Positions 28,235-42,464 of a DNA stretch of 64,000 nt are shown piece after piece. Numbering within the stretch: the first letter of the stretch is position 1; every line of letters starts with the position of its first letter. Both the position numbers and the translations under genes were made by a program. The notes beneath the pieces are model-generated. The model did not search any database. It had not been told where the DNA came from and saw only the letters and a list, made by a program, of their open reading frames with translations. The stretch is from Clostridiales bacterium (lineage in GTDB: Bacteria > Bacillota > Clostridia > Christensenellales > CAG-138), in contig SVGX01000002.1 of the NCBI GenBank assembly GCA_015056105.1, forward strand, positions 7,417 to 71,416. Direction: 5' to 3'.

Positions 28235-29074
28235 TTATTTCTTGAAGAGCTTGTAGACATCCTCACGCCTGTTTTCAAGGGTGATGACCTGCTTTTTGAC
28301 CTTCATACGGTATTCGGGATCGATCTCCGCGGTGATCACGCAGGGCTTGTCATGGGCCTTGGCGATGATGTTGCCCCAGGGATCGATGATCAGGGAACGG
28401 CCATAGGTGGGGCCGTCATACTTCACGCCGCACTGGCCGCCCGCAAGCAGGTAGCAGCTGTTTTCAATGGCGCGGCTCTGGAGCAGGATATCCCAGTGAT
28501 CCTTACCGGTCATGAGATAGAAGCTGGAAGGAACGAAGAAAAGGTCCGCACCTTCCATGGCCATCAGACGGAAGAGCTCGGGGAAGCGAAGATCATAGCA
28601 GATGGAAAGACCAAGCTGGCCGATCTCCTTGGTATCGTAGACAACGATATCCTTGCCGGGGCACTTGTGGTCACTCTCGCGGTAGGCGTGGGCGCCGGCA
28701 ACATCCATATCGGAAGCATGGATCTTGCGGTACTTGGCAACAAGCTCACCCTTGGGGTTGAAGAGCATGCTGGTGTTGTGGGGGCGCGGGTCAGCGGGGT
28801 TTTCGTTTTTCTCGCTGGAGCTGCCGCTGTGGATCCACATGTTGTACTTCACCGCCAGCTCGCTGAGCATGGTGGCAAGACGGCCGCCGGGCATATCTTC
28901 CGCATAGTCGCGGTAATCGTTGCCCTGGTAGGTCCAGTTTTCGGGCAGGGTGACAAGCTTTGCCTGACGGGCGCCGGCTTCGCCGATAAAGTCCGCAGCC
29001 GCTTTCAGGTTTTCTTCGTAGTTTTCGTTGGTATCAAGCTGGATGACCGCAGCAACATATTTCTTATCGAACAT
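28235..29074 (-). CDS. carbon-nitrogen hydrolase family protein (nitrilase superfamily), paralogue 1
   Basis: The Glu-Lys-Cys triad motifs are all present: LVTLPE, YRKIH, LSICYDLRFPE. 279 aa. Confidence 0.9.
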   Translation of the reverse strand: MFDKKYVAAVIQLDTNENYEENLKAAADFIGEAGARQAKLVTLPENWTYQGNDYRDYAEDMPGGRLATMLSELAVKYNMWIHSGSSSEKNENPADPRPHNTSMLFNPKGELVAKYRKIHASDMDVAGAHAYRESDHKCPGKDIVVYDTKEIGQLGLSICYDLRFPELFRLMAMEGADLFFVPSSFYLMTGKDHWDILLQSRAIENSCYLLAGGQCGVKYDGPTYGRSLIIDPWGNIIAKAHDKPCVITAEIDPEYRMKVKKQVITLENRREDVYKLFKK

Positions 29075-29110
29075 AATCGTTTCCCTCTTACTGATATTGT
29101 TTGATGAACG

Positions 29111-29149
29111 GAAAAATGCGGCGTGGGAGGGGGATCTCTCCCGCGCCGC
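29111..29149 (-). terminator. hairpin plus U-run between the two C-N hydrolase paralogues
   Basis: GCGGCGTGGGAG (29118-29129) pairs with CTCCCGCGCCGC (29138-29149). The A5 run at 29112-29116 gives a U-run on the minus strand. Confidence 0.6.
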
Positions 29150-29158
29150 CCGTATCGC

Positions 29159-29998
29159 TTAGACCTTGCTGAGGTTGTAGACGTCTTCACGCCTGTTTTC
29201 AAGGGTGATGACCTGCTTCTTGACCTTCATGCGATAGTTGGGATCGATCTCCGCAGTGATGACGCAGGAATAGTCCGGCGCCTTGGCAATCACATTGCCC
29301 CAGGGATCGATGATCAGGGAGCGGCCGTAGGTGGGGCCGTCATACTTGACGCCGCACTGGTCGGCAGCCATCAGATAGCAGCTGTTTTCAATGGCGCGGG
29401 CACGGAGAAGAACTTCCCAGTGATCCTTGCCGCTCATGAGAACGAAGCTGGCGGGATTGAAGAACACATCCGCGCCTTCCATGGCCATCAGACGGAACTG
29501 CTCCGGGAAGCGGAGGTCGTAGCAGATGGCAAGACCGAGCTTACCGACTTCCTTGGTGTCGTACACAACGATCTCGTTGCCGGGGCACTTGCTCTCGGAC
29601 TCACGGAAGCTGCCGCCGCCGATGATATCCACGTCAAACATATGAACCTGGGTGTACTTGGCAACAAGCTCGCCGTTGGGGTTGATGAGCATGCTGGTGT
29701 TCAGGGGACGGGGATCTTCGGGGTTGGGGTTCTTCTGGCTGGAGCTGCCGCTGTGGATCCACATGTTGTACTTCTTGGCCAGCTCGCTGAGCATGGTGCA
29801 GGTACGGCCGCCGGGCATATCTTCCGCATAGTCGCGGTAATGATGGCCCTGATAGGTCCAGTTCTCCGGCATGGTGATGAGCTTCGCGCCGCGGGAAGCG
29901 GCTTCGCCGATCAGATCCGCAGCGCACTTCAGATTGTGCTCGTAATTGTCATTGGTGTCGAGCTGAATACATGCAGCAATATACTTCTGGTCAAACAT
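29159..29998 (-). CDS. carbon-nitrogen hydrolase family protein, paralogue 2 (catalytic Lys position is Gln)
   Basis: 279 aa and colinear with paralogue 1 without gaps. LITMPE and LAICYDLRFPE are present, but the YRKIH box reads YTQVH. Confidence 0.88.
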   Translation of the reverse strand: MFDQKYIAACIQLDTNDNYEHNLKCAADLIGEAASRGAKLITMPENWTYQGHHYRDYAEDMPGGRTCTMLSELAKKYNMWIHSGSSSQKNPNPEDPRPLNTSMLINPNGELVAKYTQVHMFDVDIIGGGSFRESESKCPGNEIVVYDTKEVGKLGLAICYDLRFPEQFRLMAMEGADVFFNPASFVLMSGKDHWEVLLRARAIENSCYLMAADQCGVKYDGPTYGRSLIIDPWGNVIAKAPDYSCVITAEIDPNYRMKVKKQVITLENRREDVYNLSKV

Positions 29999-30027
29999 GG
30001 TTTTATCTCCCTTCAGAAATCAAGTGC

Positions 30028-30777
30028 TCAGCAGTTGAACTTCCACTGCATATACTCCGCGATGCGGGCTACGCAGCGTTCCACAACTTCCTTACCCTTT
30101 TCGGCGGTAGCGATGGTGGCGTCACCAAGGATGCCGTTTTCGGTGGTCTCATTAAATACGGTGAAGTCGATGATGTCGCCGTACTTTTCGTATTCATCGC
30201 CCTCTTTGGGGGTGACCTTTTCGGCCTTGGACATATCCACATACTCGGGATGCAGGTGGAGCATGACGGAAGTGCCGCACTCGCTGGCATGGCCATGGCA
30301 CATCCAGCCGGTGGTCTCGCATACGCCGAGAGCCTGGTTGCGGGTGAAGCGCCACCAGTCAACCTGCGCGCACTTGATGCCAAGCTCGCGCTCAAGGGGA
30401 CGGCAAACCTGACCCACCATGGGTACATTGCCCGCATGGCCGTTGATGAACATGAAGTTCTTGAAGCCAAGGTGCATCAGGGAGGTCATGTAATCCTCAA
30501 TGATGGCGGTCCAGGTGCTGGGACGGATGTACATGGTGCCGGGATACTTGGTAAGGGAATAGGATTCGCCGACCTCAAGGGAGGGACCGATCATGGCGTT
30601 GACGCGGTCAGCAACGCGCTCCGCGATATCCTGTGCGCAAATGATATCGCTGCCCATGGGCATATGGGGGCCGTACACTTCGATGGCGCCGACAGGGATG
30701 ATGACGGTGTCACAGGTCTTTTTGCGCTCCGCAAACTCGGTGGAGCTCATCAGTTTGATCCAATTGGTGTTCTGCAT
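30028..30777 (-). CDS. creatininase family amidohydrolase
   Basis: Start at MQNTNWIKL (ATG 30777, RBS GGAGGA upstream). VIIPVGAIEVYGPHMPMGSD and FINGHAGN motifs are typical of the creatininase (PF02633-like) family. Confidence 0.85.
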   Translation of the reverse strand: MQNTNWIKLMSSTEFAERKKTCDTVIIPVGAIEVYGPHMPMGSDIICAQDIAERVADRVNAMIGPSLEVGESYSLTKYPGTMYIRPSTWTAIIEDYMTSLMHLGFKNFMFINGHAGNVPMVGQVCRPLERELGIKCAQVDWWRFTRNQALGVCETTGWMCHGHASECGTSVMLHLHPEYVDMSKAEKVTPKEGDEYEKYGDIIDFTVFNETTENGILGDATIATAEKGKEVVERCVARIAEYMQWKFNC

Positions 30778-30806
30778 AATGTTTGTTTTCCTCCGCATTC
30801 ACCAGC

Positions 30807-31769
30807 TTAAAGCTGATTGATTTCCTTTACATTGTGACAGGCCACGAAATGGCCTTCGATCGCTTCCTCAAGCTGCGGATTCTCCTGGTAGCAGATATCC
30901 GTTGCGTAGGGGCAGCGGGCGGCAAAGCGGCAGCCGGGCTTCGGGTCGATGGGAGAGGTGATCTCGCCGGTCAGAAGCTGGCGCTTCCTGCCTTCGATGA
31001 TCTCCGGGATCGGCACAGCCGCAAGCAGCGCCTTGGTATAGGGATGCAGGCGGTTTTTGAAGATCTCCTCCGCGGAAGAGAACTCCACCATGTTGCCAAG
31101 GTACATGATCATGATGTTGTCGCTGATATGCTTGACAACGCTCATGTTGTGGGTGATGAACATGTAGGTCAGGTCAAACTCATCCTGAAGATCCTGCATC
31201 AGGTTGAGGATCTGCGCCTGAATGGAAACGTCAAGGGCGGAAACCGGCTCATCGCAGACGATAAATTCCGGGTTCAGCGCCAGCGCGCGTGCGATGCCGA
31301 TACGCTGACGGCGGCCGCCGTCCAGCTCGTGGGGATAGGAATTGGCAAAACGCCTTGCAAGACCAACGGTGTCCATCAGGCGGCCCACTTCCTTGCCGAG
31401 CTCTGCGCTGTTCTTCGTGGTCTTATAGATCAGAAGGGGCTCTGCGATCAGCTGGCTGACGCTCATACGCGGGTTGAGCGAGGAGAAGGGATCCTGGAAG
31501 ATCATCTGCACATGGGAGCGGAATTCCTTCAGCTCATGCTTGGTCAGGTCGCTCACATCGCGGCCGTCAAAGAAGATCTTGCCGTCCGTGCGCTCATGCA
31601 GGTGGATGACCGTACGGCCAAGGGTGGACTTACCGCAGCCGGATTCACCGACCACGCCCAGGGTCTGGCCGCGCTCGATCTTGAAGTTGATATCATCCAC
31701 AGCGTGGAGCAGGCCGCGGGGGGTCTTGAAGTATTTCTTTAAGTTTTGGACTTCAACTAAGGTAGACAT
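30807..31769 (-). CDS. ABC transporter ATP-binding protein (DppF/OppF-like)
   Basis: Start at MSTLVEVQNLKKYF (ATG 31769, RBS AAGGAG upstream). Walker A GESGCGKST and Walker B IVCDEPVSALD. Confidence 0.92.
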   Translation of the reverse strand: MSTLVEVQNLKKYFKTPRGLLHAVDDINFKIERGQTLGVVGESGCGKSTLGRTVIHLHERTDGKIFFDGRDVSDLTKHELKEFRSHVQMIFQDPFSSLNPRMSVSQLIAEPLLIYKTTKNSAELGKEVGRLMDTVGLARRFANSYPHELDGGRRQRIGIARALALNPEFIVCDEPVSALDVSIQAQILNLMQDLQDEFDLTYMFITHNMSVVKHISDNIMIMYLGNMVEFSSAEEIFKNRLHPYTKALLAAVPIPEIIEGRKRQLLTGEITSPIDPKPGCRFAARCPYATDICYQENPQLEEAIEGHFVACHNVKEINQL

Positions 31770-31770
31770 T

Positions 31771-32745
31771 TCAGTTCTCCTTTCCCGCAAACTTCGTGCA
31801 GCGCACCATATGGCCGGGCTCGATCTCAATGTAGGGCACCGCGCCCTTCATGCACTTCTCGCAGGCCTCGCCGCAGCGCTCCGCAAAGGCACAGCCTGCG
31901 GGCAGCTTGGTGGGGTCGGGCATCAGGCCGGGAATGGGCTTGAGGCGGGTCACGGTCTCGTTGAGGTTCGGGATGGAACCGAACAAGCCGACGGTATAGG
32001 GGTGAGAAGGATTCTTATAAATATGCTCCAGCGTGCCGTATTCCACGATCTCGCCCGCATAGATGATCGCAACCTTGTTGCACACTTCCGCCACAACACC
32101 AAGGTCATGGGTGATGAGCAAAAGGGAGGTATCATACTTCACCTTCAGCTGCTCGATGAGCTCAAGCACCTGCGCCTGAATGGTCACGTCAAGGGCGGTG
32201 GTGGGCTCGTCTGCGATGAGCAGGGAAGGATTACAGGCAAGGGCGATGGCAATGACGATACGCTGCTTCATGCCGCCGGAGAACTGGTGAGGATATTCGG
32301 TGGCGCGGCCGCCTTCAATGCCGACGATCTCCATCATTTCCTTGGCGCGCTGGAAGGCTTCCGCCTTGGTCACGTTCTGGTGCAGGCGGATCACCTCTGC
32401 GATCTGGTCGCCAACGGTGAGCATGGGGTTCAGAGCCGTCATGGGATCCTGGAAGATCATGGAGATCTCATTGCCGCGGATCTTGCGCATTTCCTTCTCG
32501 CTCTTCTCGCGCAGGTTTTCGCCGCGGTAGAGGATCTCGCCGCCGGTGATCTTGCCCGGCGGGTTGGGAATGAGACCCATGATGGAAAGGGCGGTGGTGG
32601 TCTTGCCGGCACCGGTCTCGCCGACGAGGCCGAGGGATTCGCCCTTTTCAAGGCTCAGCGTAATGCCGTTTACGGCGCGAACGGTATCCTTACCGGCACT
32701 GTACTGCACATAGAGGTCTTTGATTTCAAGAATGTTTTCGCTCAT
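31771..32745 (-). CDS. ABC transporter ATP-binding protein (DppD/OppD-like)
   Basis: Walker [10 protein letters not shown], signature FSGGMKQRI, Walker [12 protein letters not shown]. Confidence 0.92.
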
Positions 32746-32759
32746 AGTTTTTCACCTCA

Positions 32760-33665
32760 TTAGGTCTTGAGCTTGGGATCGAGCGCGTCACGCAGGCCGT
32801 CTCCGAAGAGGTTGAAGGAGAACGCGGCCGTCATGATGGCAAGGCCCGGGAACGTGACCAACCACCAGTAATCGCGGATATAGGCACGGGCAGAAGACGC
32901 CATGGAGCCCCATTCCGGTGTCGGTGGCGGAACGCCGAGGCCAAGGAAGCTCAGGCCCGTTGCGCTCATGATGGTGGTGGCGATGCTCATGGTCGCCTGT
33001 ACGATGATGGGCGCAAGGCAGTTGGGCAGGATGTACTTGAAGATGATGCGCGCATCGCTGGCGCCGGTGGAATAGGCCGCTTCCACGTATTCGGAGCCCT
33101 TGGCGGAAAGCACGCTGACGCGTGTAACGCGGGCATAACCGGCGATGGAACCGATAGAAAGCGCGATGATCAAATTCGGGATGGTGCTGCCGAGAGCCGC
33201 CACGATGGAGATACCAAGCAGCGTATTCGGGATGGCCATCAGGATATCGATGAAGCGCATCAGAAGGTTATCGGTGACGCCGCTGTAGAAGCCGGCGACC
33301 GCACCGATGATAACGCCGATGACACAGGAGATCACCACCGTCACAATACCGATCTCCATGGAGGTACGGCAGCCGTAGATCACGCGGGCGAAGATATCGC
33401 GGCCGTATTCATCCGTGCCGAAAAGGTGTTCGCTGCTCGGCGGGAGGAAGCGGGCACGAAGATCCTGCGCGATCGGATCATACTTGGTGAGCAGCTGGGG
33501 GAACATGGCCGCAAAGAGGAGAAATGCAACGATCACAAGGCCGAACACGGCGGCTTTGTTGCGCATGAAGCGACCGATGATCTCCTTCGCCTGACCGTGA
33601 CCGCCAACGGCGATTTCATTGGAAGAAGCGTTTACAGCTTGCTTGTTTTTCTTGATCGCAGCCAT
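32760..33665 (-). CDS. ABC transporter permease (DppC/OppC-like)
   Basis: HLFGTDEYGRDIFARVIYG motif and multi-TM body. Abuts the upstream permease gene (33666). Confidence 0.9.
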   Translation of the reverse strand: MAAIKKNKQAVNASSNEIAVGGHGQAKEIIGRFMRNKAAVFGLVIVAFLLFAAMFPQLLTKYDPIAQDLRARFLPPSSEHLFGTDEYGRDIFARVIYGCRTSMEIGIVTVVISCVIGVIIGAVAGFYSGVTDNLLMRFIDILMAIPNTLLGISIVAALGSTIPNLIIALSIGSIAGYARVTRVSVLSAKGSEYVEAAYSTGASDARIIFKYILPNCLAPIIVQATMSIATTIMSATGLSFLGLGVPPPTPEWGSMASSARAYIRDYWWLVTFPGLAIMTAAFSFNLFGDGLRDALDPKLKT

Positions 33666-34631
33666 TTAGCTCACCTTCTCTTTCCTGGGCGCCTTCTTTT
33701 TGCCGCTGACATACTGGGAACGGATGCGCGGGTCAACGAAGGCATAGATAATGTCGATCATAAGGTTGATAAGAGACATCGCGATGGCAACAAACAGGAT
33801 GCCGCCCTGCACAAGGGGCGCATTCTTGGTGTTGATGCCGTCAACGATCATCTTGCCGATACCGTTGATGGAGAATACCGTTTCAATAACCGCCGCGCCG
33901 CCAAGAAGCTTTGCAAAGTCGGTACCGGCAACGGTGATGATGGGCAGCACCGCGTTGCGGAACGCGTGCTTCATGACCACCACGAATTCGCTCTGGCCCT
34001 TGGCCCGCGCCGTGCGGACATAGTCCTCACGGATGGCCTCCAGCATGCTGGAACGGGTCATACGCATGCAGGCTGCAAGGCCCCAGGTGCTCAAGGTGAA
34101 CGCGGGGAGGATCCAGTGCTTCCAGCTCGAAAGGCCGGAAGGCGGCAACCATCCAAGGATGACCGAGAAGAGGATAATCAGCATAAGACCTTCCCAGAAG
34201 CTGGGGAGGGAAACGCCGACCATAGCAAACATACGGGTGGCGTTATCGAGGAAGCTGTATTGCTTCACCGCCGAAACAACACCCAGCGTTACGCCGATCA
34301 CGATGGCGAACACCTCCGCCCAGAGCGAAAGCTTCATCGTCGTGGGGAAGGCTGACATAATCTCTTTCATGACGGGCTGGCGGGTGGCATAGGAAATGCC
34401 GAAATCGCCGGTGACCGCATTTGCCACATAGCTGACATACTGCACGATAAAGGGTCGGTTCAGACCGTTCTGCTCGTTGAAAAGGGCCTTGTCTTCTTCC
34501 GTGGCCAATTCACCGAGGATATAATCCGCAGTCTCACCCGGCGAAAAATACATCATGGAAAATGTAATGAACGTTACGCCAAGCATTACCGGGATCATCA
34601 TGATGATCCGTTTGAAGATGTACTTGAGCAT
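33666..34631 (-). CDS. ABC transporter permease (DppB/OppB-like)
   Basis: MLKYIFKRIIMMIPVMLGVTFITF N-terminus and multi-TM body. Confidence 0.9.
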   Translation of the reverse strand: MLKYIFKRIIMMIPVMLGVTFITFSMMYFSPGETADYILGELATEEDKALFNEQNGLNRPFIVQYVSYVANAVTGDFGISYATRQPVMKEIMSAFPTTMKLSLWAEVFAIVIGVTLGVVSAVKQYSFLDNATRMFAMVGVSLPSFWEGLMLIILFSVILGWLPPSGLSSWKHWILPAFTLSTWGLAACMRMTRSSMLEAIREDYVRTARAKGQSEFVVVMKHAFRNAVLPIITVAGTDFAKLLGGAAVIETVFSINGIGKMIVDGINTKNAPLVQGGILFVAIAMSLINLMIDIIYAFVDPRIRSQYVSGKKKAPRKEKVS

Positions 34632-34657
34632 CTTGTTTCCTCCGGCTTTAAATCTTG

Positions 34658-34694
34658 GAAAAACCGGCTGCCAGGCTCTCTGCCCGGCAGCCGG
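34658..34694 (-). terminator. intra-operon hairpin plus U-run between the SBP and permease genes
   Basis: CCGGCTGCCAGG (34664-34675) pairs with CCCGGCAGCCGG (34683-34694). The A5 run at 34659-34663 gives a U-run on the minus strand. Confidence 0.6.
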
Positions 34695-34747
34695 CCATCT
34701 TGCGGCTCAAGCGCCGCCGTTATTGATTGGGGATATGCTGTTGAAGC

Positions 34748-36358
34748 TTATTCGTAGACTACCCAGTCAGCAATGTGCTTCATGTGGTCAATGGCGGGAT
34801 GGAACTCGAAGCCTTCGAGCTTCTCGCTGACCGCATAGTTGATGGGCATGTTGCCGTAGGGATAGGAATAACGCTTCTCGTAGAGGTAGTTGTTGACTTC
34901 GTCGATGCAGACTTCGCGCTGCGGATCATCATAGTAGTAGGTACGCAGCTCAAGGAGCTTCGCATCCAACCAATCATCGTTGCCCTGGAGACGGGAACCG
35001 AAGGAGGACTCATAGATGATGTACATGTTGGAAGCTTCGGAAGCCGTGGAGTCGCGGATGCAGATCTGGAACTGGCCGTTGTTGGCAGCATCGTAGGTAG
35101 CAAGCGCGCTGGAAACGATGTTCACGTTAACGCCGATCTCAGCCCACATGGCCTGAAGGATCTCAGCAGCCTTTTCGTAAACGGGCAGGGGCTCGATGTG
35201 GAGCTCGATGTCGAAACCGTTGGGATAGCCGGCCTTGGCCAGATATTCCTTAGCCTTCTCAACATCATAGGGCCAGGGTTCCATTTCCTTCCAGTCGCTG
35301 GCAGGCATGGAGATCATACCGTTGTTGACACGGCCTAGACCATCGGTGGAAGCCTCAACGAGGATTTCCTTATCGATAGCATAGGACAGAGCATAACGGA
35401 CATCCTGGTTCTTGAGGATCTCGTGCTGCATGCTGTAGGTGATAACGAGGTAACGGTAAGCATGGCCGGATTCAACGCGATAGTCTTCAAACTCATCAAC
35501 GCGGGCAACGTCGTTGCCTTCGATGTAGTAAGCGATATCGGCAGCGCCGGTTTCACACTCGATCACGCGGCTGGTGGCTTCGGGGATGAACTTGATGAGG
35601 ATGTTCTCGGTCTTCGCAGGCTCGCCCCAGTAATGCTCGTTGCGGGTGAGGGAGATGGAAGTGCCGGGGAGCCATTCAACAACCTTGTAGGGGCCGGAGC
35701 AGATGGGAGCGCGGCTGAAGTCAGCTTCGCCCATCTCTTCGAAAGCCTTCTCGCTTACGAGGGTACCGCGGCCGGTGGAAAGGGTGTTCTGGAAGGGAGC
35801 CCACGCCTGGTTCATCTTGATGGTGAAGTGGGTGTCATCCTGAGCAACGGTGCCTTCGGGGTTCACGAACGCGAAGTTGGAAGCGCTGCGGGGAGCTTCC
35901 TTCAGACGGTTGAGCTCCCAAACGATATCCTGAGCGGTGAGGGGCTCGCCGTTGGACCACTTGAGGCCTTCCTTGAGCACGAAGTTGACGGTGGTGTCGT
36001 CAACCATCTCGTAGGATTCGCAGACGCCGCCGAGGGTCATGGTGCCGTCAGCCTGAAGATCGAAGAGGTGATCGCCGATCATGCCAAGAACGATGCAGAT
36101 CGCGTCGGTGTTGGCGCTGGCGGGATCAAGGGTCTCGGGCTCGGACTCGGTAACAAGAACGATGGTGTCCTTCTGTACCTTGTCAGCGGTCTCGGTGGAT
36201 TCGCTGCCGGAAGCTTCGGGTGCGGTGGAAGCTTCGGGAGCGGTGCTGGTGGCGGGCTCATTGCCGGATTCGGGTTCGTTGGTCGCGTCTTTGGCGCAGC
36301 CGGCGAACGCAAAAGCAACAAGCAGCAGTGCAAGAAGCAGTGCCAGTGTACGTTTCAC
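34748..36358 (-). CDS. ABC transporter substrate-binding lipoprotein, family 5
   Basis: GTG 36358 lies 8 nt after AGGAGG. Lipobox FAFAGC, a TSTAPEASTAPEASGSE linker, then an SBP_bac_5-like body. Confidence 0.9.
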   Translation of the reverse strand: MKRTLALLLALLLVAFAFAGCAKDATNEPESGNEPATSTAPEASTAPEASGSESTETADKVQKDTIVLVTESEPETLDPASANTDAICIVLGMIGDHLFDLQADGTMTLGGVCESYEMVDDTTVNFVLKEGLKWSNGEPLTAQDIVWELNRLKEAPRSASNFAFVNPEGTVAQDDTHFTIKMNQAWAPFQNTLSTGRGTLVSEKAFEEMGEADFSRAPICSGPYKVVEWLPGTSISLTRNEHYWGEPAKTENILIKFIPEATSRVIECETGAADIAYYIEGNDVARVDEFEDYRVESGHAYRYLVITYSMQHEILKNQDVRYALSYAIDKEILVEASTDGLGRVNNGMISMPASDWKEMEPWPYDVEKAKEYLAKAGYPNGFDIELHIEPLPVYEKAAEILQAMWAEIGVNVNIVSSALATYDAANNGQFQICIRDSTASEASNMYIIYESSFGSRLQGNDDWLDAKLLELRTYYYDDPQREVCIDEVNNYLYEKRYSYPYGNMPINYAVSEKLEGFEFHPAIDHMKHIADWVVYE

Positions 36359-36409
36359 TTTTATTTCCTCCTGATTTTTATTGCGCAGGCGCGAGACCCG
36401 CAAACTTGT

Positions 36410-36425
36410 ATAACAATTTTGTTAT
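36410..36425. promoter_or_regulatory. 16-bp near-palindrome, candidate operator upstream of the minus-strand ABC operon
   Basis: ATAACAAT / TTTGTTAT, 7 of 8 arm positions complementary, about 50 nt upstream of the SBP start. Followed by a tandem ATGATTTTCG x2 at 36432-36451. Confidence 0.4.
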
Positions 36426-36534
36426 TTCAATATGATTTTCGATGATTTTCGCTGTTGCAGCAGATCGAATTCCGTTTGCCCGAGATGCGTTTTTTTCACG
36501 CTGGCGAAGTGGCACAAATCACGATAATGTTGTG

Positions 36535-36563
36535 TTGACTTTTCTTACCCAGCCTGTTACTAT
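36535..36563 (+). promoter_or_regulatory. sigma-70-like promoter for the RraA-family gene
   Basis: TTGACT (36535-36540), 17-nt spacer, TACTAT (36558-36563). Confidence 0.5.
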
Positions 36564-36741
36564 ACAAATCGAGCATGGTGTTCAGTATCTGAACTTGCTT
36601 CAAAGTATAAAGACCGTACGATTTTTGTCAATACGGAAGTTTATATTTTTGTTTTATGTTGGTTCGGTATTAAACACTTTTGCCCATTTTCAACATTATT
36701 CTCATTATGAAAAACACATGTCTCAAGGAGGAAACAAACCA

Positions 36742-37407
36742 ATGGCACTTTCCGAAGAACTCATTCGCCGTTTCAAAGCCGTTGACCCTGCCACCATGGG
36801 TCACTACATCGGCGGCGGCTACATGCGCCCTGAAATGAAGCCCCTCAACATCGGCGAACGCCGCATGGTGGGTCCCGCCTACACCCTGCGCATCCCCGGC
36901 AAGGATTCCTGCGGCATCTACTACGCCATCTCCAAGGCGCCCAAGGGCAGCGTTATCGTTGTGGACCGCTGCGGCGATGATACCTTCGCCTGCTGCGGCG
37001 AAATGGTCGCCACCTATGCCCAGGGCTGCGGCATGGCCGGCCTTGTGATCGACGGCCCCGCCACCGACTCCGTTGCCATCAAAAAGCTTGATATCCCCGT
37101 GTTCTGCACCGGTATTTCCTGCGTGACCACCGTGATCCTCGGCGTCACCGGCGAAGTCCAGATCCCGATCACCTGCTCCGGCACCATCGTCAACCCCGGT
37201 GACATCGTCTTCGGCGACGCGGACGGCGTGGTTGTTCTTCCTCCGGATGGTTATGAAGAAGCCCTGCGCAAATCCGAAGAGTCCGTTGCTGCGGAAGTTA
37301 CCCAGCGCCAGATCTTCGGCCGCGGCGAGCTCCCCGGCTGGGACATTGAGCGCCTCTTTGAGACCAATACCGTCCCCATGCTGCTCGAGCTGCGCAAAAA
37401 GAACTGA
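36742..37407 (+). CDS. RraA family protein (putative 4-hydroxy-4-methyl-2-oxoglutarate aldolase / oxaloacetate decarboxylase type)
   Basis: ATG 36742 lies 10 nt after AAGGAGG. GSVIVVDRCGD, ACCGEMVATYAQ and GLVIDGPATD motifs are RraA-like. Confidence 0.8.
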   Translation: MALSEELIRRFKAVDPATMGHYIGGGYMRPEMKPLNIGERRMVGPAYTLRIPGKDSCGIYYAISKAPKGSVIVVDRCGDDTFACCGEMVATYAQGCGMAGLVIDGPATDSVAIKKLDIPVFCTGISCVTTVILGVTGEVQIPITCSGTIVNPGDIVFGDADGVVVLPPDGYEEALRKSEESVAAEVTQRQIFGRGELPGWDIERLFETNTVPMLLELRKKN

Positions 37408-37417: not shown

Positions 37418-37446
37418 AAGCGCCGGATTTTTTCCGGCGCTTTTTT
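37418..37446 (+). terminator. intrinsic terminator
   Basis: GCGCCGGA (37420-37427), loop TTTTT, TCCGGCGC (37433-37440), then T6. Confidence 0.85.
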
Positions 37447-37696
37447 CATAACGGGCATTGTTTTTCGAAAAAAACGGTTATATAATGATGCCATGGGAGT
37501 TGTTTCGAAATAAAACAACTTTTATAGCCGTCGGGGTGTAATCTATTTAAGCAAGTCATTTCGCATTTGTTGAAAATTCCTTTCCTGCAGCCCGATAAAG
37601 TAATGATATGTTTAGTACATATATGAAAAAACTATGCTCTGGGAACACAATATATGCCGCAGGAACCATTCTGCGGCGGAAAAGAGGAACCCGCCT

Positions 37697-38218
37697 ATGC
37701 TTGTCATCCACCAGGAAAATGTCTGGGAAACTTACCCCTATTATCAGCTGAGCAACCTGATCTTCGACTATTCGCTCCGCTATACCGACCGCAATATGAA
37801 GCTGAAGGATTACGGCACCGGCGAGCTTTATTCCCCCGTGGAAGCGCACCTGCTTGAAAAGATCTTTTTCAACCCGGGCATCACCGTGACGGATCTTGCC
37901 AAGAAAAGCAACCGCAGCAAAGGCGCCATTTCCCAGGTCGTTACAAAGCTGATCGAAAAGGGTCTTGTGATCAAAACGAGCCAGGAGTTTCACAAAAAGC
38001 GCATGTCCCTTTGGGCAACGCCTAAGGGCAAACAGCTCACCAAGGCCCATTTAAAATACGATGATGAAAAGACAGGCGAATTCTTCAAGCAACTGCTGGA
38101 GCATTACACCTCCGAGCAGATCGATGCCTTTTTCAAGGTGATGGAATCCTGCCTTTACCTGCTGCATGACGATTATGAGAGCGCACTGATGCAGAATCTG
38201 CCCAACCCGCTCAAATAA
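37697..38218 (+). CDS. MarR-family (winged-helix) transcriptional regulator
   Basis: The winged-helix core ITVTDLAKKSNRSKGAISQVVTKLIEKGLV...PKGKQL is MarR-like. The start is uncertain: ATG 37697 is preferred over ATG 37634. Confidence 0.7.
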   Translation: MLVIHQENVWETYPYYQLSNLIFDYSLRYTDRNMKLKDYGTGELYSPVEAHLLEKIFFNPGITVTDLAKKSNRSKGAISQVVTKLIEKGLVIKTSQEFHKKRMSLWATPKGKQLTKAHLKYDDEKTGEFFKQLLEHYTSEQIDAFFKVMESCLYLLHDDYESALMQNLPNPLK

Positions 38219-38257
38219 CCGCATCCCCAATTGGAAGCCGGAAGGAGACCGAAACCC

Positions 38258-39220
38258 ATGTTCCGCGTGCTGCATTATATTTATGAAGTCTACCGGGAAA
38301 GCAGCTTTTCCAAAGCAGCGCAGAAGCTCTTTCTTTCCCAGTCCTCTTTGAGTTTGACCATCAAGCGCTACGAAAGCGAGATCGGCGTGCAGATCTTTGA
38401 CCGCAGCACCATGCCCGTGAAGCTGACAGACGCCGGCGTGATCATCATCAACGAAATACAGAAGCTCCTCGCCATTGAGCAGGATATGCAGACCTATCTT
38501 GAAGATTACCGTGAGCTTAAGACCGGCAGCCTGACCATCGGCGTGCCCCACATGTTCGCAAGCTATCTTCTGCCCCGCTATATCGCAAAATTTCTGCATC
38601 TTTACCCGGACATCAAGGTCAACATCGCCGAATCGGATCTTCATTCCCTGCAGGAGATCATCCTGAACGGCGATGCGGACCTTCTCATCGAGTGCCACGA
38701 TTTCGATCCGGAGCTTTTCCGCATCTATCCGCTGTTTGAAGAGCATATCCTTCTTGCGGTGCCGGCGAACGACCCCATCAACCGGAAGAACACCAAAGCC
38801 CTTCTCACCGCGGCGGATATCCTTGCCGACAAACATGTTTCCGCTGCCTGTCCCGCCATCTCCCTTACGCCCTTTGAAAAGCATCCCTTCCTGATGCTGG
38901 AGCGGGGCTATGACCTGCACAGCAGGGGCCTTCGCTTCTGCCGGGAAAGCGGCTTTGAACCGCAGGTATTCATGTACCTTAACCAGCTTGCCACCGTTTA
39001 CAGCTTTGCCAAGCAGCACCTTGGCGTCACCTTTGTTTCGGATACCGCCATAAAGCTTTCCAACCCCGGCAGCGAGCTTGTGTATTATAAGATCGCCGCG
39101 GAAAACACCACCCGCAGCGTCAACATGGTGCACAAGCGCAACCGCTATATTTCCAAAGCCGCGGGCGCTTTTATCGAGCTTGCATCCATGCTGGATATGC
39201 ACGATCTTGTGACACCGTAA
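38258..39220 (+). CDS. LysR family transcriptional regulator
   Basis: ATG 38258 follows GGAAGGAG. The N-terminal HTH FSKAAQKLFLSQSSLSLTIKRYESEIGVQIFDR is followed by a LysR substrate-binding-like C-terminal domain. Confidence 0.88.
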   Translation: MFRVLHYIYEVYRESSFSKAAQKLFLSQSSLSLTIKRYESEIGVQIFDRSTMPVKLTDAGVIIINEIQKLLAIEQDMQTYLEDYRELKTGSLTIGVPHMFASYLLPRYIAKFLHLYPDIKVNIAESDLHSLQEIILNGDADLLIECHDFDPELFRIYPLFEEHILLAVPANDPINRKNTKALLTAADILADKHVSAACPAISLTPFEKHPFLMLERGYDLHSRGLRFCRESGFEPQVFMYLNQLATVYSFAKQHLGVTFVSDTAIKLSNPGSELVYYKIAAENTTRSVNMVHKRNRYISKAAGAFIELASMLDMHDLVTP

Positions 39221-39368
39221 TGCGGTTCTTACCTTATTATTGATAAACATCAATACTTCACCTCCTTTCTTTGTATTTGACGAATATCCCACCCCATCGG
39301 ATAATGAAGGATGGAACAAAGCCGTTCAAAACGGCAGGCAATACAGTAATCTGAAACCGGAGGCATTT

Positions 39369-40262
39369 ATGTTTGAACTGAAAGGCATCTACTGTCCCAT
39401 CGCAACCCCCTTTGTGAACGACAAGATCGCTTACGACAAGCTGGATCAGAACATGGAATTCTGGACCGCTTCCAAGCTTGAGGGCATCGTGGTCATGGGC
39501 TCCAACGGCGAGTTCACCTCCCTGCGCGAAAGCGAAAAGGAAGAGCTCATCCGCCACTGCTGCAAAGTGATCGACGGCAAAAAGCGCGTTGTGGTCGGCA
39601 CCGGCAGCAACTGCATGGATGAAACCCTTCACCTTTGCCGGGTCTCTGCAGACTGCGGTGCGGATGCGGCCCTCGTTGTCACTCCCTTCTATTTCAAGGG
39701 TGCCATGAACGACGCAAACCTTGAAAACTACTACACCACCCTTGCGGACAAATCCCCCCTGCCCATCATCGTGTACAACATGCCCCTCAACGCCGGCGTG
39801 AACACCTCCTATGAGCTGCTCTGCCGCCTTTCCAAGCACCCCAACATCGTGGGCGTGAAGGATACCTCCGGCAACATCGTGCAGATCTGCCAGACCATCT
39901 TCAACTGCGAAAAGGATTTCTCCGTTCTCGCAGGCAACTGGGCATTCCTTCTCCCCGCGCTGTTCCTCGGCGCCAAGGGCGGCACGCTGGCCCTTTCCAA
40001 CATCTTCCCCAACGAGTGCGCCTCCATGGTGGAACTTTACAACGAAGGCAAGTATGATGAGTGCCGTGCCCTCGCAAAGCGCCTGATCCCCATCAACGCT
40101 GCCGTTACCACCAAGTACGGCATCGGCGGTCTCAAGGTCGCCATGGAATATGTAGGCCTCTTCGGCGGCGAACCCCGCCTGCCCCTGCGCCTGCCCAACG
40201 ATGATGTCAAGAAGGCCATCCGCGAAGCCCTCGAATATGCAGGCGCGGAAGTTCGCGCATAA
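39369..40262 (+). CDS. dihydrodipicolinate synthase family lyase (DapA/NAL superfamily), substrate unknown
   Basis: ATG 39369 follows GGAGG. GIYCPIATPF, GIVVMGSNGEF, VVGTGSN, VVTPFYFK and VGVKDTSG motifs are characteristic of class I aldolases of the DHDPS family. Confidence 0.85.
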   Translation: MFELKGIYCPIATPFVNDKIAYDKLDQNMEFWTASKLEGIVVMGSNGEFTSLRESEKEELIRHCCKVIDGKKRVVVGTGSNCMDETLHLCRVSADCGADAALVVTPFYFKGAMNDANLENYYTTLADKSPLPIIVYNMPLNAGVNTSYELLCRLSKHPNIVGVKDTSGNIVQICQTIFNCEKDFSVLAGNWAFLLPALFLGAKGGTLALSNIFPNECASMVELYNEGKYDECRALAKRLIPINAAVTTKYGIGGLKVAMEYVGLFGGEPRLPLRLPNDDVKKAIREALEYAGAEVRA

Positions 40263-40322
40263 AAAGCGATACCCGGCCCCCCGGGGCTTACCAAATTGAA
40301 TCAACAGAAAAGGAGCAATATT

Positions 40323-41468
40323 ATGGAAAAGAACGTTCTTGTTATGATCCCGGGTCCCACCCCCGTCGTCAGGTCCATCCAGGAGCAGATGGGCCGTGAG
40401 ATCCAGGCCTTCGGCGATCCCCGCTTCGTAAAGGATTACAAAGAGCTCATCGATGATCTCGGCAAGCTCTTCAACTGCAGCGGCCAGACCTTCCCCCTCG
40501 CCGGCACCGGCACCCTTGCCATGGAAATGGCCATCGCCAACACCACCAAGCGCGGTGACAACGTCCTGATCGTCTCCAACGGCTTCTTCGGCGACAGGTT
40601 CATCGATATCTGCACCCGCAAGGGCCTCAACGTGGATGTCATCAGCGCTGAGTGGGGCAGCTGCGTTTCTCCCGCCGAGATCGAAAAGAAGCTCGCCGAG
40701 AAGAACTACGCCGTGATGACCGTTACCCATGTTGATACCTCCACCGCCGTTGTCGCGCCCATCGCGGAGATCGGCAAAGTGGCCGCCAAGTTCCCCGAAA
40801 CCCTTTACATCGTGGACGGCGTCGCTGCCACCGCCGGCGAATATGCCGATGTGGACGGCATGAACATCGACCTTATGCTCACCGGTTCCCAGAAGGCCTT
40901 CGGCGTATGCCCCGGCATGTTCATCGTCTGGGCCGGCAAGAAGGCCCTTGAGCGCCGCAAGGCCCTCGGCACCATCCCCGAGTATTATGTGGACTTTGAA
41001 AAGTGGCTGCCCATCATGGAGAACCCGGGCAAGTACTTTGCCACCCCCGCCATCAACCTCGTATGGGCGCTGAAGGAATCCGCCGCCATCATCGCAGAGG
41101 AAGGCCTCAAGGCCCGCGCCGAACGCCACAGCAAGCATGCGAAGGCTGTCCATAAGGCCCTCGAAGCCCTCGGCTTCCAGATCCTTGCCAAAGAAGAATG
41201 CCGCGCCAGCACCCTGAGTGTCTGCATCTACCCCGAAGGCGTGGAAGATGTCAAGTTCCGCAACTGCATGTTTGAAGAAGGTGCCATCGTTGCCGGTGCG
41301 CTCGGCGCTTATGCCGGCAAGGCATTCCGCCTCGGCCACATGGGCAACATCGACATCAACACCCTCGTGCAGACCCTCGGCTGCGTAGAGCGCTCCCTCA
41401 AGGCCTGCGGCGTTGCCGTGAAGGAAGGCACCGCTGTCGGCGCTTACATGGCTGCCCTCGCGGAATAA
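40323..41468 (+). CDS. class V aminotransferase (serine-pyruvate / alanine-glyoxylate type)
   Basis: ATG 40323 follows AAGGAG. MIPGPTPV at the N-terminus, a SGSQKAF-like lysine box (TGSQKAFG) and overall AGT-family resemblance. Confidence 0.85.
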   Translation: MEKNVLVMIPGPTPVVRSIQEQMGREIQAFGDPRFVKDYKELIDDLGKLFNCSGQTFPLAGTGTLAMEMAIANTTKRGDNVLIVSNGFFGDRFIDICTRKGLNVDVISAEWGSCVSPAEIEKKLAEKNYAVMTVTHVDTSTAVVAPIAEIGKVAAKFPETLYIVDGVAATAGEYADVDGMNIDLMLTGSQKAFGVCPGMFIVWAGKKALERRKALGTIPEYYVDFEKWLPIMENPGKYFATPAINLVWALKESAAIIAEEGLKARAERHSKHAKAVHKALEALGFQILAKEECRASTLSVCIYPEGVEDVKFRNCMFEEGAIVAGALGAYAGKAFRLGHMGNIDINTLVQTLGCVERSLKACGVAVKEGTAVGAYMAALAE

Positions 41469-41498
41469 GCAGAGCCGCTCCACAGGAAGGAGACCCGC

Positions 41499-42464
41499 AT
41501 GCAATACACCACCCTCGGCAATTCCGGCATTGAGATCTCAAGGCTCTGCCTCGGCTGTCTCGGCTTCGGTGAACCCTCGCCGGATTCCCACGTTTGGACC
41601 CTTGATCCCGCCGCCACGGAAGTGATCGTAAAGCGGGCCCTTGATCTCGGCATCAACTTCTTCGATACCGCCAACACCTATTCCCACGGTACCAGCGAAG
41701 AATATCTCGGCCGGGCGCTCAAAAACCTCGTGCCCCGCGACAAGGTGGTCATTGCCACAAAGGTCTACTTCAATGAAGGTCACCTTTCCAAAAAGGCTAT
41801 CTTCCGGGAGATCGACCTTTCCCTCAAGCGCCTTGGGACGGACTATGTGGATCTTTATATCCTGCACCGGTTCGACCCCACCACCCCCATCGAGGAGACC
41901 CTTGAAGCCCTTGACACCATCGTCAAGGCGGGCAAGGTGCGCGCCCTTGGCGCTTCCGCCATGTACGGCTACCGCTTCCACACCATGCAGGTGTGCGCGG
42001 AGCGCAACGGCTGGACACCCTTCGTTTCCATGCAGAACCACTACAACCTCCTTTACCGGGAGGATGAGCGGGAGATCATCCCCCTCTGCCTGCAGGAAAA
42101 GGTGGCACTGACGCCCTTCAGTCCCCTTGCGGCCGGCAGGCTCGCCCGCCCCGAATGGAATGCGGACACCCACCGCAGCAGGACGGACACCACCGCCGCC
42201 GGCAAATATGACCGGACGGAGGCGACGGACAGGGAGATCGCAAGGCGCGTGCATGAAACGGCGGAAAAATACGGCGCCAGCATGACGCAGGTAGCTTTGG
42301 CGTGGCAGTTCAAAAAGGGCATCACCGCCCCCATTGTCGGCGCCACGAAGGCCAAATACCTTGATGACGCCGTGGGCGCTTTCGATGTCGCCCTGACGGA
42401 TGCGGATATCGCCTTCCTGGAAGAACCCTATGAACCCCACAGGGTCGTCGGGTTCGGCACATAA
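41499..42464 (+). CDS. aldo/keto reductase
   Basis: MQYTTLGNSGIEISRLCLGCLGFG, INFFDTANTYSHGTSEEYLGRAL and YVDLYILHRFD are classic AKR motifs. Confidence 0.9.
   Translation: MQYTTLGNSGIEISRLCLGCLGFGEPSPDSHVWTLDPAATEVIVKRALDLGINFFDTANTYSHGTSEEYLGRALKNLVPRDKVVIATKVYFNEGHLSKKAIFREIDLSLKRLGTDYVDLYILHRFDPTTPIEETLEALDTIVKAGKVRALGASAMYGYRFHTMQVCAERNGWTPFVSMQNHYNLLYREDEREIIPLCLQEKVALTPFSPLAAGRLARPEWNADTHRSRTDTTAAGKYDRTEATDREIARRVHETAEKYGASMTQVALAWQFKKGITAPIVGATKAKYLDDAVGAFDVALTDADIAFLEEPYEPHRVVGFGT

What the first reader, a model, noticed from the sequence alone, without database searches (positions are those of the whole stretch)
28235..42464. Roughly 14-kb putative catabolic island for an unidentified amide or amino-acid-like compound
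Minus-strand operon: SBP, two permeases, two ATPases, creatininase-family amidohydrolase, two C-N hydrolases. Transcribed divergently from it: an RraA-like aldolase/decarboxylase, MarR and LysR regulators, a DapA-family lyase, a class V aminotransferase and an aldo/keto reductase. The enzyme set (ring or linear amide hydrolysis, omega-amidase-type deamidation, transamination, aldol cleavage, carbonyl reduction) would suit stepwise breakdown of a cyclic amide or modified amino acid to central metabolites. I cannot map it to a described pathway. The substrate assignment is pure inference.
Basis: inference. Interest (0 to 1): 0.55.

Follow-up and report, generated by a model that had tools for sequence, protein, structure and literature searches.

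The report
Two-part amide-breakdown gene island
All 15 genes are present as one bounded block. Nine of them form an importer-plus-amidase operon of unknown substrate that recurs in many anaerobes; the other six (two regulators and a glyoxylate-type enzyme trio) join it only in this genus.

Summary
All 15 genes belong to the stated families. Strong terminators at 28180-28212 (-) and 42475-42511 (+) bound the block. A congeneric species carries the same 15 genes in different flanks.

Module A is conserved across Clostridia, Spirochaetes, Synergistaceae and Bifidobacterium in at least six gene orders. It holds a Dpp-type ABC importer, a creatininase-family hydrolase, a Nit1/Nit2-type amidase and an RraA-like protein. 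The hydrolase lacks both ligands of creatininase's second metal. The RraA-like protein has Thr where HMG/CHA aldolase has its catalytic Arg. Neither is the enzyme its name suggests.

Module B holds MarR, LysR, a HOGA1-type aldolase, an AGXT-type aminotransferase and an AKR. It is attached only in this genus-level clade. Its aminotransferase and AKR orthologues sit in unrelated contexts elsewhere.

In a 301-genome sample of the order, module A was found only in this genus. A conserved palindrome sits between overlapping divergent promoters and is probably the MarR operator.

The most likely function is import and two-step hydrolysis of an acidic amide or unusual dipeptide, with glycine/glyoxylate handling added here. 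The substrate is still unknown. No paper describing the cluster was found. The scan had noted the same cluster in another genome, without follow-up.

The parts
28180..28212 (-). Intrinsic terminator that ends the minus-strand operon
   Evidence: 15-bp stem with 12 GC pairs and a T-run. It lies 23 nt after the stop of the last C-N hydrolase gene.
28235..29074 (-). Nit-type C-N hydrolase CN1 (279 aa) with an intact Glu-Lys-Glu-Cys tetrad
   Evidence: PF00795, 184 bits. Best solved relatives are Nit1/Nit2/Nit3 at E 1e-46 to 1e-49. Catalytic motifs shown.
29159..29998 (-). Tandem paralogue CN2 (77% identical to CN1), with Gln in place of the catalytic Lys
   Evidence: Codon CAG at 29648-29650, against AAG in the 98%-identical relative L002.
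30028..30798 (-). Creatininase-family metal hydrolase (homologues are 249 aa). It is not a creatininase.
   Evidence: PF02633, 213 bits. TIGR04448 scores 139, below the cut-off of 235. His36 is Tyr and Glu122 is Gly relative to P. putida creatininase. Both changes are fixed in the family alignment A1.
30807..32745 (-). Two Opp/Dpp-type ABC ATPases
   Evidence: ABC_tran plus oligo_HPY domains.
32760..34631 (-). Two ABC permeases (DppC-like and DppB-like)
   Evidence: BPD_transp_1 with OppC_N, and BPD_transp_1 with BPD_transp_1_N.
34748..36358 (-). Family-5 substrate-binding lipoprotein
   Evidence: SBP_bac_5, 254 bits. Lipobox and start codon. Nearest solved relatives are an unnamed SBP, GsiB/YliB, AccA, DppA and NikA, all distant.
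36535..36631 (.). Overlapping divergent promoters with the palindrome GTTCAG-TAT-CTGAAC (36582-36596) between them; probable MarR operator
   Evidence: Plus strand: TTGACT-17-TACTAT. Minus strand: TTGACA-16-TATACT. The hexamers and the inverted repeat are kept in L002, L003, L004, L096 and L006, and the repeat arms co-vary (GTTCAG/CTGAAC against GTTAA/TTAAC).
36742..37407 (+). RraA-like protein of a distinct subfamily, here called 'RraA_T' (221 aa)
   Evidence: PF03737. Aligned to 3NOJ, Arg123 is Thr, while Asp124 and Glu199 are kept and Asp102 is Glu. The motif DGPATD, or a close variant with the same Thr-Asp, occurs in 42 of 43 cluster-linked homologues.
37634..38218 (+). MarR-family regulator (true start uncertain)
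   Evidence: PF01047 and PF12802. It follows the RraA-like gene in the close clade and, at 47% identity, at the contig end of L006.
38231..39220 (+). LysR-family regulator
   Evidence: HTH_1 plus LysR_substrate. Best NCBIfam match is CidR at 168 bits, far below the cut-off of 415.
39277..39305 (+). Promoter-like site in front of the aldolase-aminotransferase-AKR genes
   Evidence: TTGACG-17-GATAAT, 10 of 12 matches. It lies in the 148-nt gap between LysR and the corrected aldolase start.
39369..40262 (+). HOGA1-type (4-hydroxy-2-oxoglutarate aldolase-like) member of the DHDPS family
   Evidence: Human HOGA1 scores 209 bits, against 163 bits for the best DHDPS. The GSNGEF motif and the loop lengths are shared with HOGA1. 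It is the only DHDPS-family gene in the genome, and no dapB was found.
40296..41468 (+). Class V aminotransferase of the serine-pyruvate / alanine-glyoxylate type
   Evidence: PF00266. Best solved relatives are SPT/AGXT/SGAT enzymes at E 1e-54 to 1e-43. BhcA scores 213, below the cut-off of 650.
41499..42464 (+). Aldo/keto reductase
   Evidence: PF00248, 233 bits. Best NCBIfam match is YdjG methylglyoxal reductase at 139 bits, below the cut-off of 550.
42475..42511 (+). Intrinsic terminator that ends the plus-strand genes
   Evidence: 17-bp stem and a T-run.

Best explanation
The locus is a horizontally distributed catabolic island made of two modules.

Module A (28235-37407 plus MarR) is an undescribed operon that recurs widely. 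The proposed steps are:
1. A lipoprotein SBP and a DppBCDF-type importer take up an acidic amide. This could be a protease-resistant dipeptide or a cyclic amide of an aspartate- or glutamate-like acid.
2. A creatininase-family hydrolase with a probably mononuclear metal site cuts or opens the first C-N bond.
3. A Nit1/Nit2-type amidase cuts the second C-N bond. This releases ammonia or an amine plus a 2-oxo-dicarboxylate of the oxaloacetate/2-oxoglutarate type.
4. The RraA_T protein acts on that product. In some genomes a PEP-mutase/isocitrate-lyase-family protein stands in its place.
5. MarR probably represses both divergent promoters through the conserved palindrome.

Module B (LysR, HOGA1-type aldolase, AGXT-type aminotransferase, AKR) is a lineage-specific add-on with its own promoter. 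It interconverts 4-hydroxy-2-oxoglutarate, pyruvate, glyoxylate and glycine, and reduces a reactive carbonyl. Here it deals with a C2 (glycine/glyoxylate) or 2-oxo-acid product of module A.

Shown: gene content, boundaries, conservation pattern, active-site differences.
Inferred: every reaction and the substrate class.
For: 1. Linkage. Of 80 genome loci holding a homologue of the creatininase-family gene, 61 hold the Nit gene within 7 kb, about 50 the Dpp-type ABC genes, and 41 RraA_T. Thirty-five have all of these. They occur in at least six gene orders, often as one co-directional operon. The hosts include Lachnospiraceae, Oscillospiraceae, Tissierellia, Sedimentibacter, Treponemataceae, Synergistaceae and Bifidobacterium.
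2. RraA_T or a PEP-mutase-family gene occurs only where Nit is present: 47 of 61 loci against 0 of 19. This fits action on the Nit product. Both families are known to include oxaloacetate decarboxylases (established knowledge).
3. Where the ABC importer is missing, the transporter next to the hydrolase genes is GltS-like, DcuC, 2HCT or TRAP. All of these carry carboxylates.
4. The Nit proteins sit in the Nit1/Nit2 omega-amidase clade. They score 182 bits on the deaminated-glutathione amidase model against 95 bits on the carbamoylputrescine amidase model.
5. Module B: HOGA1 is the best solved relative of the aldolase, and the GSNGEF motif is shared. AGXT/SPT enzymes are the best relatives of the aminotransferase.
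6. In another lineage (L010, L011, L013, L015) divergent GcvPA/GcvPB-like genes follow the ATPase genes after gaps of 12-24 nt (L010, L011, L015) or with an overlap of the called ORFs (L013). A second lineage-specific add-on therefore also points at glycine-type chemistry.
7. A distant metagenome locus (L110) again joins RraA_T, a DapA-like gene, an AKR and an M20 hydrolase.
8. The promoters and the co-varying palindrome are conserved across the clade.
Against: - No substrate is identified, and no enzyme reaches an equivalog cut-off.
- RraA_T lacks the Arg that is essential in HMG/CHA aldolase. Its proposed lyase or decarboxylase role may be wrong, and it could even be non-catalytic.
- In 14 or more loci an M20D N-acyl-amino-acid amidohydrolase takes the place of Nit. 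The second step may therefore be an N-deacylation rather than an omega-deamidation.
- The GltS-like match is weak (49 bits).
- Module B may have no functional tie to module A. Orthologues of its aminotransferase sit next to alanine and glutamate dehydrogenase genes or stand alone. The AKR is a common gene, found in 28 of 301 genomes.
- The related loci share ancestry, so the counts are not independent events.
- Promoter and terminator calls are consensus matches only.
Confidence: 0.55

Rival explanations
1. One integrated 15-gene pathway for a single substrate built on a 4-hydroxyglutamate or hydroxyproline skeleton, such as a hydroxylated pyroglutamate or lactam, or a collagen-derived dipeptide. 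The left arm would import and hydrolyse it. The aminotransferase would make 4-hydroxy-2-oxoglutarate. The HOGA1-type aldolase would split that into pyruvate and glyoxylate, and the AKR would reduce glyoxylate.
For: - All 15 genes lie between two strong terminators and move as one block between two species.
- RraA_T, a module A gene everywhere else, heads the plus-strand gene row here.
- The aldolase is HOGA1-type and the aminotransferase AGXT-type.
- L110 and L103 show that DapA-like, RraA_T, AKR and class V aminotransferase genes meet again in other lineages.
- Pro-Hyp rises in mouse faeces when anaerobes are removed (PMC4079339).
Against: - Outside the genus-level clade, none of about 75 module A loci has the aldolase, aminotransferase or AKR nearby.
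- The aldolase row has its own promoter-like site.
- Orthologues of the aminotransferase and the AKR live in unrelated contexts.
Confidence: 0.2
2. Catabolism of omega-linked acidic peptides: beta-aspartyl or gamma-glutamyl dipeptides such as beta-Asp-Gly, or glutathione-like compounds. The route would run through transamination and a Nit1-type amidase. The free alpha-amino group is transaminated. The Nit enzyme splits the resulting 2-oxo-acyl amide into oxaloacetate or 2-oxoglutarate plus the amine. RraA_T or the PEP-mutase-like protein removes oxaloacetate. The creatininase-family enzyme opens a cyclic imide or lactam form, or cuts the released dipeptide.
For: - Deaminated-glutathione amidase is the best NCBIfam match of both Nit proteins.
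- Nit1 and Nit2 are the best solved relatives.
- The importer is Dpp-type, and GsiB is among the nearest SBPs.
- The lineage-specific add-ons handle glycine or amino groups: an AGXT-type aminotransferase here, GcvP-like genes in L010-L015, a class I/II aminotransferase in L047.
- Beta-aspartylglycine and gamma-glutamyl amino acids persist in the gut only when the anaerobic flora is missing (PMC4079339).
Against: - No aminotransferase belongs to the conserved core.
- Many loci use GltS-like, DcuC or 2HCT carriers, which are unlikely to carry peptides.
- Scores are far below the equivalog cut-offs (182 against 500).
- The role given to the creatininase-family enzyme is ad hoc.
Confidence: 0.15
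3. A hydantoinase-carbamoylase-type route for a creatinine-, hydantoin- or ureide-like ring that carries a carboxylate, such as 5-carboxymethylhydantoin, hydantoin-5-propionate or dihydroorotate. The creatininase-family enzyme would open the ring. The Nit enzyme (or M20 in other genomes) would remove the carbamoyl group and free aspartate or glutamate.
For: - Creatinine is itself a hydantoin-like ring, and the family fold is shared.
- Both CN_hydrolase and M20 families contain carbamoylases (established knowledge), and the two alternate next to the creatininase-family gene.
- An Asp/Glu/hydantoin racemase sits in the related L110 cluster.
- The neighbouring transporters are of acidic type.
Against: - The Nit proteins belong to the Nit1/Nit2 branch, not a carbamoylase branch (182 against 95 bits).
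- The M20 partners are M20D N-acyl-amino-acid amidohydrolases (TIGR01891), not the AmaB/allantoate amidohydrolase type.
- The creatininase-family protein lacks two of the five metal ligands of creatininase.
Confidence: 0.1

Closest known systems
Creatinine amidohydrolase (creatininase, EC 3.5.2.10; PDB 1J2T, 1V7Z)
   Same: Same Pfam family (PF02633). The metal-1 ligands Glu34, Asp45 and His120 and the catalytic His178 are conserved.
   Different: Both metal-2-specific ligands are lost: His36 is Tyr and Glu122 is Gly, and both changes are fixed in the subfamily. TIGR04448 scores 139 against a cut-off of 235. No creatinase partner is present. The partners are instead a Nit amidase and RraA_T.
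Nit1 deaminated-glutathione amidase and Nit2 omega-amidase (nitrilase superfamily; PDB 1EMS, 2W1V, 1F89, 4H5U)
   Same: Best sequence relatives, at E about 1e-47. The Glu-Lys-Glu-Cys tetrad is intact in CN1 and in 67 of the 68 other aligned sequences; window CN2 is the exception.
   Different: Scores are far below the equivalog cut-offs: 182 against 500, and 139-141 against 355. Here the gene sits in a transporter operon rather than acting as a housekeeping repair enzyme. CN2 of this genome has Gln at the catalytic Lys.
HMG/CHA aldolase / oxaloacetate decarboxylase (LigK, GalC; PDB 3NOJ) of the RraA-like family
   Same: Same fold family. Asp124 and Glu199 are kept and Asp102 is conservatively Glu.
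   Different: Arg123, the residue I recall as contacting the pyruvate carbonyl and being essential, is Thr in 42 of 43 cluster-linked homologues. TIGR02798 scores 101 against a cut-off of 304. No protocatechuate or gallate pathway genes are nearby.
Mammalian glyoxylate-handling set HOGA1 / AGXT / GRHPR (last steps of hydroxyproline breakdown)
   Same: The aldolase aligns to human HOGA1 over nearly its full length (209 bits) and shares the GSNGEF motif. The aminotransferase is AGXT/SPT-type. A carbonyl reductase follows.
   Different: The reductase is an AKR, not a D-2-hydroxyacid dehydrogenase. No proline or hydroxyproline dehydrogenase genes are present. No activity has been tested. The three genes are linked only in this genus-level clade.
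GsiABCD / DppABCDF peptide-type ABC importers
   Same: Five-component architecture, with oligo_HPY ATPases and a family-5 SBP.
   Different: The SBP is only distantly related to GsiB, DppA, NikA and AccA (about 100-137 bits). Its ligand is unknown.

Membership tests
Creatininase (EC 3.5.2.10, TIGR04448) | Score at or above the curated equivalog cut-off | tested here: not met
   139.3 bits against a cut-off of 235.
Creatininase (EC 3.5.2.10, TIGR04448) | Binuclear metal site: Glu34, His36, Asp45, His120, Glu122 (ligand assignment recalled from the published structures) | tested here: not met
   Alignment to 1J2T: Glu, Asp and His120 are kept; His36 is Tyr42 and Glu122 is Gly123. Tyr42 is invariant and Gly123 nearly invariant in A1.
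Creatininase Pfam family PF02633 | Pfam gathering score, and the catalytic His178 equivalent | tested here: met
   212.7 bits against 31.3. The HGHASECG motif is invariant.
Nit1/Nit2 branch of the nitrilase superfamily | Glu-Lys-Glu-Cys catalytic tetrad | tested here: met
   CN1 and 67 of the 68 other aligned sequences keep it. Window CN2 alone has Gln for Lys.
Deaminated glutathione amidase (NF043013, NF033621) | Score at or above the curated cut-off | tested here: not met
   182 against 500, and 139-141 against 355.
HMG/CHA aldolase / oxaloacetate decarboxylase (TIGR02798) | Catalytic Arg123 next to metal ligand Asp124, and the curated cut-off | tested here: not met
   Arg123 is Thr. 101 bits against a cut-off of 304.5.
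4-hydroxy-tetrahydrodipicolinate synthase DapA (TIGR00674) | Equivalog cut-off, GTTGE-type motif, and a dapB partner in the genome | tested here: not met
   205.3 bits against 206.15. The motif is GSNGEF, as in HOGA1. No DapB_C match in G000 (86.6% complete) or in G282 (95% complete), while family members of other genera have dapA (about 292-300 bits) next to dapB.
HOGA1-type 4-hydroxy-2-oxoglutarate aldolase | Closest to HOGA1 among solved DHDPS-family proteins; Schiff-base Lys and Ser-Asn motif; activity on 4-hydroxy-2-oxoglutarate | tested here: inconclusive
   The sequence criteria are met: 209 against 163 bits, with GSNGEF and VKDTSG motifs. Activity cannot be tested with these tools.
Genomic island (accessory, horizontally spread block) | Patchy distribution, different flanks in kin, mobility genes or deviant composition | tested here: inconclusive
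   Patchy distribution: the creatininase-family, RraA_T and aldolase orthologues were found in 2 of 301 genomes of the order. Flanks differ in G282. No integrase or transposase was seen next to the block, and GC is like the rest of the window.

The most novel reading that the evidence does not exclude
The operon of creatininase-family hydrolase, Nit amidase, RraA_T and a transporter encodes an undescribed pathway that is widespread in anaerobes. Gut and digester bacteria would use it to consume a protease-resistant acidic amide, such as beta-aspartylglycine, gamma-glutamyl peptides or pyroglutamyl peptides. It would involve two enzyme subfamilies with new chemistry: a mononuclear creatininase-fold hydrolase and an Arg-less RraA-fold enzyme. 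It would also explain the old observation that such peptides vanish from faeces only when the anaerobic flora is present.
Probability: 0.12. Interest if true: 0.7.

Novelty: new variant of a known kind. Interest (0 to 1): 0.45.

Why it matters
Catabolic operons built from an importer and amidases are common, so the kind is known. This particular combination recurs in many phyla of anaerobes, including cultured human-gut species. I found no described pathway for it. Two of its members differ from their characterised relatives at catalytic positions. Finding the substrate would assign function to three large groups of 'family protein' annotations in gut metagenomes. It could also identify how anaerobes remove unusual peptides or cyclic amides that host and ordinary bacterial peptidases leave behind. 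The HOGA1/AGXT-type pair is of side interest for glyoxylate and oxalate metabolism in the gut.

Tried and rejected
Gene neighbourhoods came from the search for related loci, the genome search and my own scripts instead.
2. Literature: seven full-text searches found no paper on this gene combination. The Listeria 'creatinine amidohydrolase' hits concern an unrelated PTS/aldolase island.
3. Riboswitch in the roughly 240-nt SBP leader: no Rfam match better than E 0.87, and the fold z-score is -0.76. The leader length is not conserved. Rejected.
4. The DapA-like gene as the housekeeping DapA: rejected.
5. Fusion proteins that might hint at the RraA_T function: only archaeal-type Fae/Hps-like fusions were found, none informative. 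The ESM Atlas gave only the family name.
6. An empty site in family members lacking the island: the flanking lrgAB and trpB2 genes are not syntenic in other genera, so no empty site could be defined.
7. LrgAB as part of the operon: rejected. A strong terminator and a separate promoter-like site lie between them and the block, and they are absent beside the block in G282.
8. SBP ligand from solved relatives: the hits are too distant and too mixed.

Full report
**What is there.** None reaches an NCBIfam equivalog cut-off. Three starts need correction:
- The SBP is a lipoprotein that starts at GTG 36358.
- The RraA-like gene starts at ATG 36742, giving 221 aa.
- The DapA-like gene starts near 39369, giving 297 aa.

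The two strongest terminator-like hairpins in an 18-kb scan lie just outside the block, at 28212-28180 (-) and 42475-42511 (+). The genome is a 1.8-Mb MAG that is 86.6% complete. Its nearest records are goat- and human-gut Clostridia/Christensenellales MAGs.

**Is it a block?** Yes, within the genus. In a second species of the same genus (G282 = L082), proteins are 62-92% identical. Collinearity with the window begins at 28232 and ends at 42455, and the flanks on both sides are unrelated. Human-gut metagenome contigs show the same row of genes.

In a sample of 301 genomes (150 genera) of the order, the counts were:

| Gene | Genomes with an orthologue |
|---|---|
| Creatininase-family gene | 2 (this genus only) |
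| RraA-like gene | 2 (this genus only) |
| DapA-like gene | 2 (this genus only) |
| Aminotransferase | 4 |
| AKR | 28 |

The locus is therefore an accessory island. No mobility genes or compositional shift were seen.

**It is composite.** I collected 80 genome loci that encode homologues of the creatininase-family protein (40-98% identity) and scored them for the window's proteins.
- 61 have a Nit-type C-N hydrolase within 7 kb.
- About 50 have the Dpp-type ABC genes.
- 41 have the RraA-like gene.
- 35 have all of these.

They occur in at least six different orders, often as one co-directional operon. Hosts include Lachnospiraceae, Oscillospiraceae, Tissierellia, Sedimentibacter, Fusibacter, Treponemataceae, Synergistaceae and Bifidobacterium.

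LysR, the DapA-like gene, the aminotransferase and the AKR accompany them only in the four closest loci. MarR does so there and, at 47% identity, at the contig end of L006. Aminotransferase orthologues at 74% identity sit beside alanine and glutamate dehydrogenase genes, or stand alone.

**Module A in detail.**
- *Creatininase-family protein.* It keeps Glu34, Asp45, His120 and His178 of P. putida creatininase. It has Tyr for His36 and Gly for Glu122. From the published structures, as I recall them, those are the two residues specific to the second metal. Both changes are fixed in the subfamily. It is probably a mononuclear hydrolase and is not a creatininase.
- *C-N hydrolases.* Both belong to the Nit1/Nit2 omega-amidase branch and are a clade-specific tandem duplicate.
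- *RraA-like protein.* Aligned with HMG/CHA aldolase 3NOJ, it keeps Asp124 and Glu199, with Asp102 conservatively Glu. It has Thr at Arg123. A Thr-Asp at that spot, usually as DGPATD, occurs in 42 of 43 cluster-linked homologues. An unlinked paralogue keeps Arg-Asp. I call this subfamily RraA_T. Its chemistry cannot be assumed to be aldol cleavage.
- *Partner pattern.* RraA_T, or in six loci a PEP-mutase/isocitrate-lyase-family protein, is present only where Nit is present: 47 of 61 loci against 0 of 19.
- *Transporters.* Where the ABC system is absent, the neighbouring transporter is GltS-like, DcuC, 2HCT or TRAP.
- *Alternative second hydrolase.* In at least 14 loci an M20D N-acyl-amino-acid amidohydrolase replaces Nit.

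Together these features point to a small acidic substrate with two hydrolysable C-N bonds, and to a 2-oxo-dicarboxylate product of the Nit step. All of this is inference.

**Regulation.** Two promoter-like sites face away from each other and overlap: TTGACT-17-TACTAT on the plus strand and TTGACA-16-TATACT on the minus strand. The palindrome GTTCAG-TAT-CTGAAC (36582-36596) lies between their -10 boxes.

The hexamers and the inverted repeat are kept in five relatives, down to 76% protein identity. Its arms change together: GTTCAG/CTGAAC becomes GTTAA/TTAAC. A dimeric repressor, most simply the MarR encoded downstream of RraA_T, would block both operons there.

The leader contains no known riboswitch. 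A separate promoter-like site at 39277-39305 precedes the aldolase gene, and no strong terminator lies between RraA_T and the AKR.

**Module B in detail.**
- *Aldolase.* Its best solved relative is human HOGA1 (209 bits over residues 3-284). The best DHDPS scores 163 bits. It shares HOGA1's GSNGEF motif and loop lengths. It is the only DHDPS-family gene in the genome. The genus lacks canonical dapA and dapB, whereas sister genera have them side by side.
- *Aminotransferase.* It is nearest to serine-pyruvate and alanine-glyoxylate aminotransferases.
- *With the AKR.* The trio resembles the HOGA1/AGXT/glyoxylate-reductase set of animal glyoxylate metabolism.

There are hints that the link to module A is more than adjacency:
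- RraA_T heads the plus-strand row here.
- In L010, L011, L013 and L015 divergent GcvP-like genes are joined to the ABC operon.
- L110 joins RraA_T, a DapA-like gene, a canonical RraA-like gene, an AKR, an M20 hydrolase and a hydantoin/Asp/Glu racemase.
- L103 has LysR, a DapA-like gene, a class V aminotransferase and an FAH-family gene.

**Substrate.** The substrate is unknown. The candidates that fit best are protease-resistant acidic peptides and lactams. A metabolomics paper reports that beta-aspartylglycine, gamma-glutamyl amino acids, Pro-Hyp and pyroglutamyl-glutamine persist in mouse faeces only when the anaerobic flora is absent (PMC4079339). A hydantoin/carbamoylase route is less likely, because the Nit and M20 partners are of the wrong subtypes.

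**Verdict.** This is a real, bounded island. It contains a conserved and undescribed importer-amidase operon, plus a lineage-specific glyoxylate-type module. I rate it a new variant of a known kind, of moderate interest. The scan had already noted the same cluster in another genome (e1-3614872) without follow-up.

Noticed in passing
window 29648-29650 (minus strand, CN2 codon 117): The catalytic Lys of the second C-N hydrolase is Gln (CAG). The 98%-identical relative L002 has AAG, and the other 68 aligned sequences, window CN1 included, have Lys. This is a single-base change private to this MAG. It could be a recent inactivation, a strain variant or an assembly error.
   Followed up: yes
L005:5584-5744 and L095: Two independent assemblies of close relatives carry a deletion of about 2.6 kb. 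It removes the SBP gene (all but its last 28 codons), the divergent control region and RraA_T. L095 also lacks the two ATPase genes. The module is decaying in some strains.
   Followed up: partly
G000 and G282 whole genomes: This genus lacks canonical dapA and dapB, although DapF domains are present (G000:C25:29707-30510). Sister genera have dapA next to dapB. This suggests dependence on external lysine or diaminopimelate. G000 is only 86.6% complete.
   Followed up: partly
window 26969-28115 (minus strand): lrgA-lrgB genes lie just past the island's terminator and have their own promoter-like site. The island's LysR is most similar, though far below cut-off, to CidR, the regulator of cid/lrg-type operons. 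lrgAB is not next to the block in G282.
   Followed up: partly
L010:674-3639, with the same arrangement in L011, L013 and L015: Divergent GcvPA/GcvPB-like PLP genes (weak GDC-P and GcvP2_C matches) follow the ABC ATPase genes after gaps of 12-24 nt (the called ORFs overlap in L013), in Lachnospiraceae and Oscillospiraceae. L011 also has a second GcvPA/PB pair nearby.
   Followed up: partly
L110:3150-11390: A metagenome contig holds M20 hydrolase, MFS transporter, 3-hydroxyisobutyrate-dehydrogenase-like, RraA_T, DapA-like, canonical RraA-like, AKR and Asp/Glu/hydantoin racemase genes in one row. It is a distant cousin of the island, built from the same families.
   Followed up: partly
window about 18310-26969: This stretch has no counterpart in the otherwise collinear close relative L002 (85-93% nucleotide identity on either side). 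It holds the plus-strand unknown-function gene row and the structured repeat noted by others. It is an indel between near relatives.
   Followed up: no
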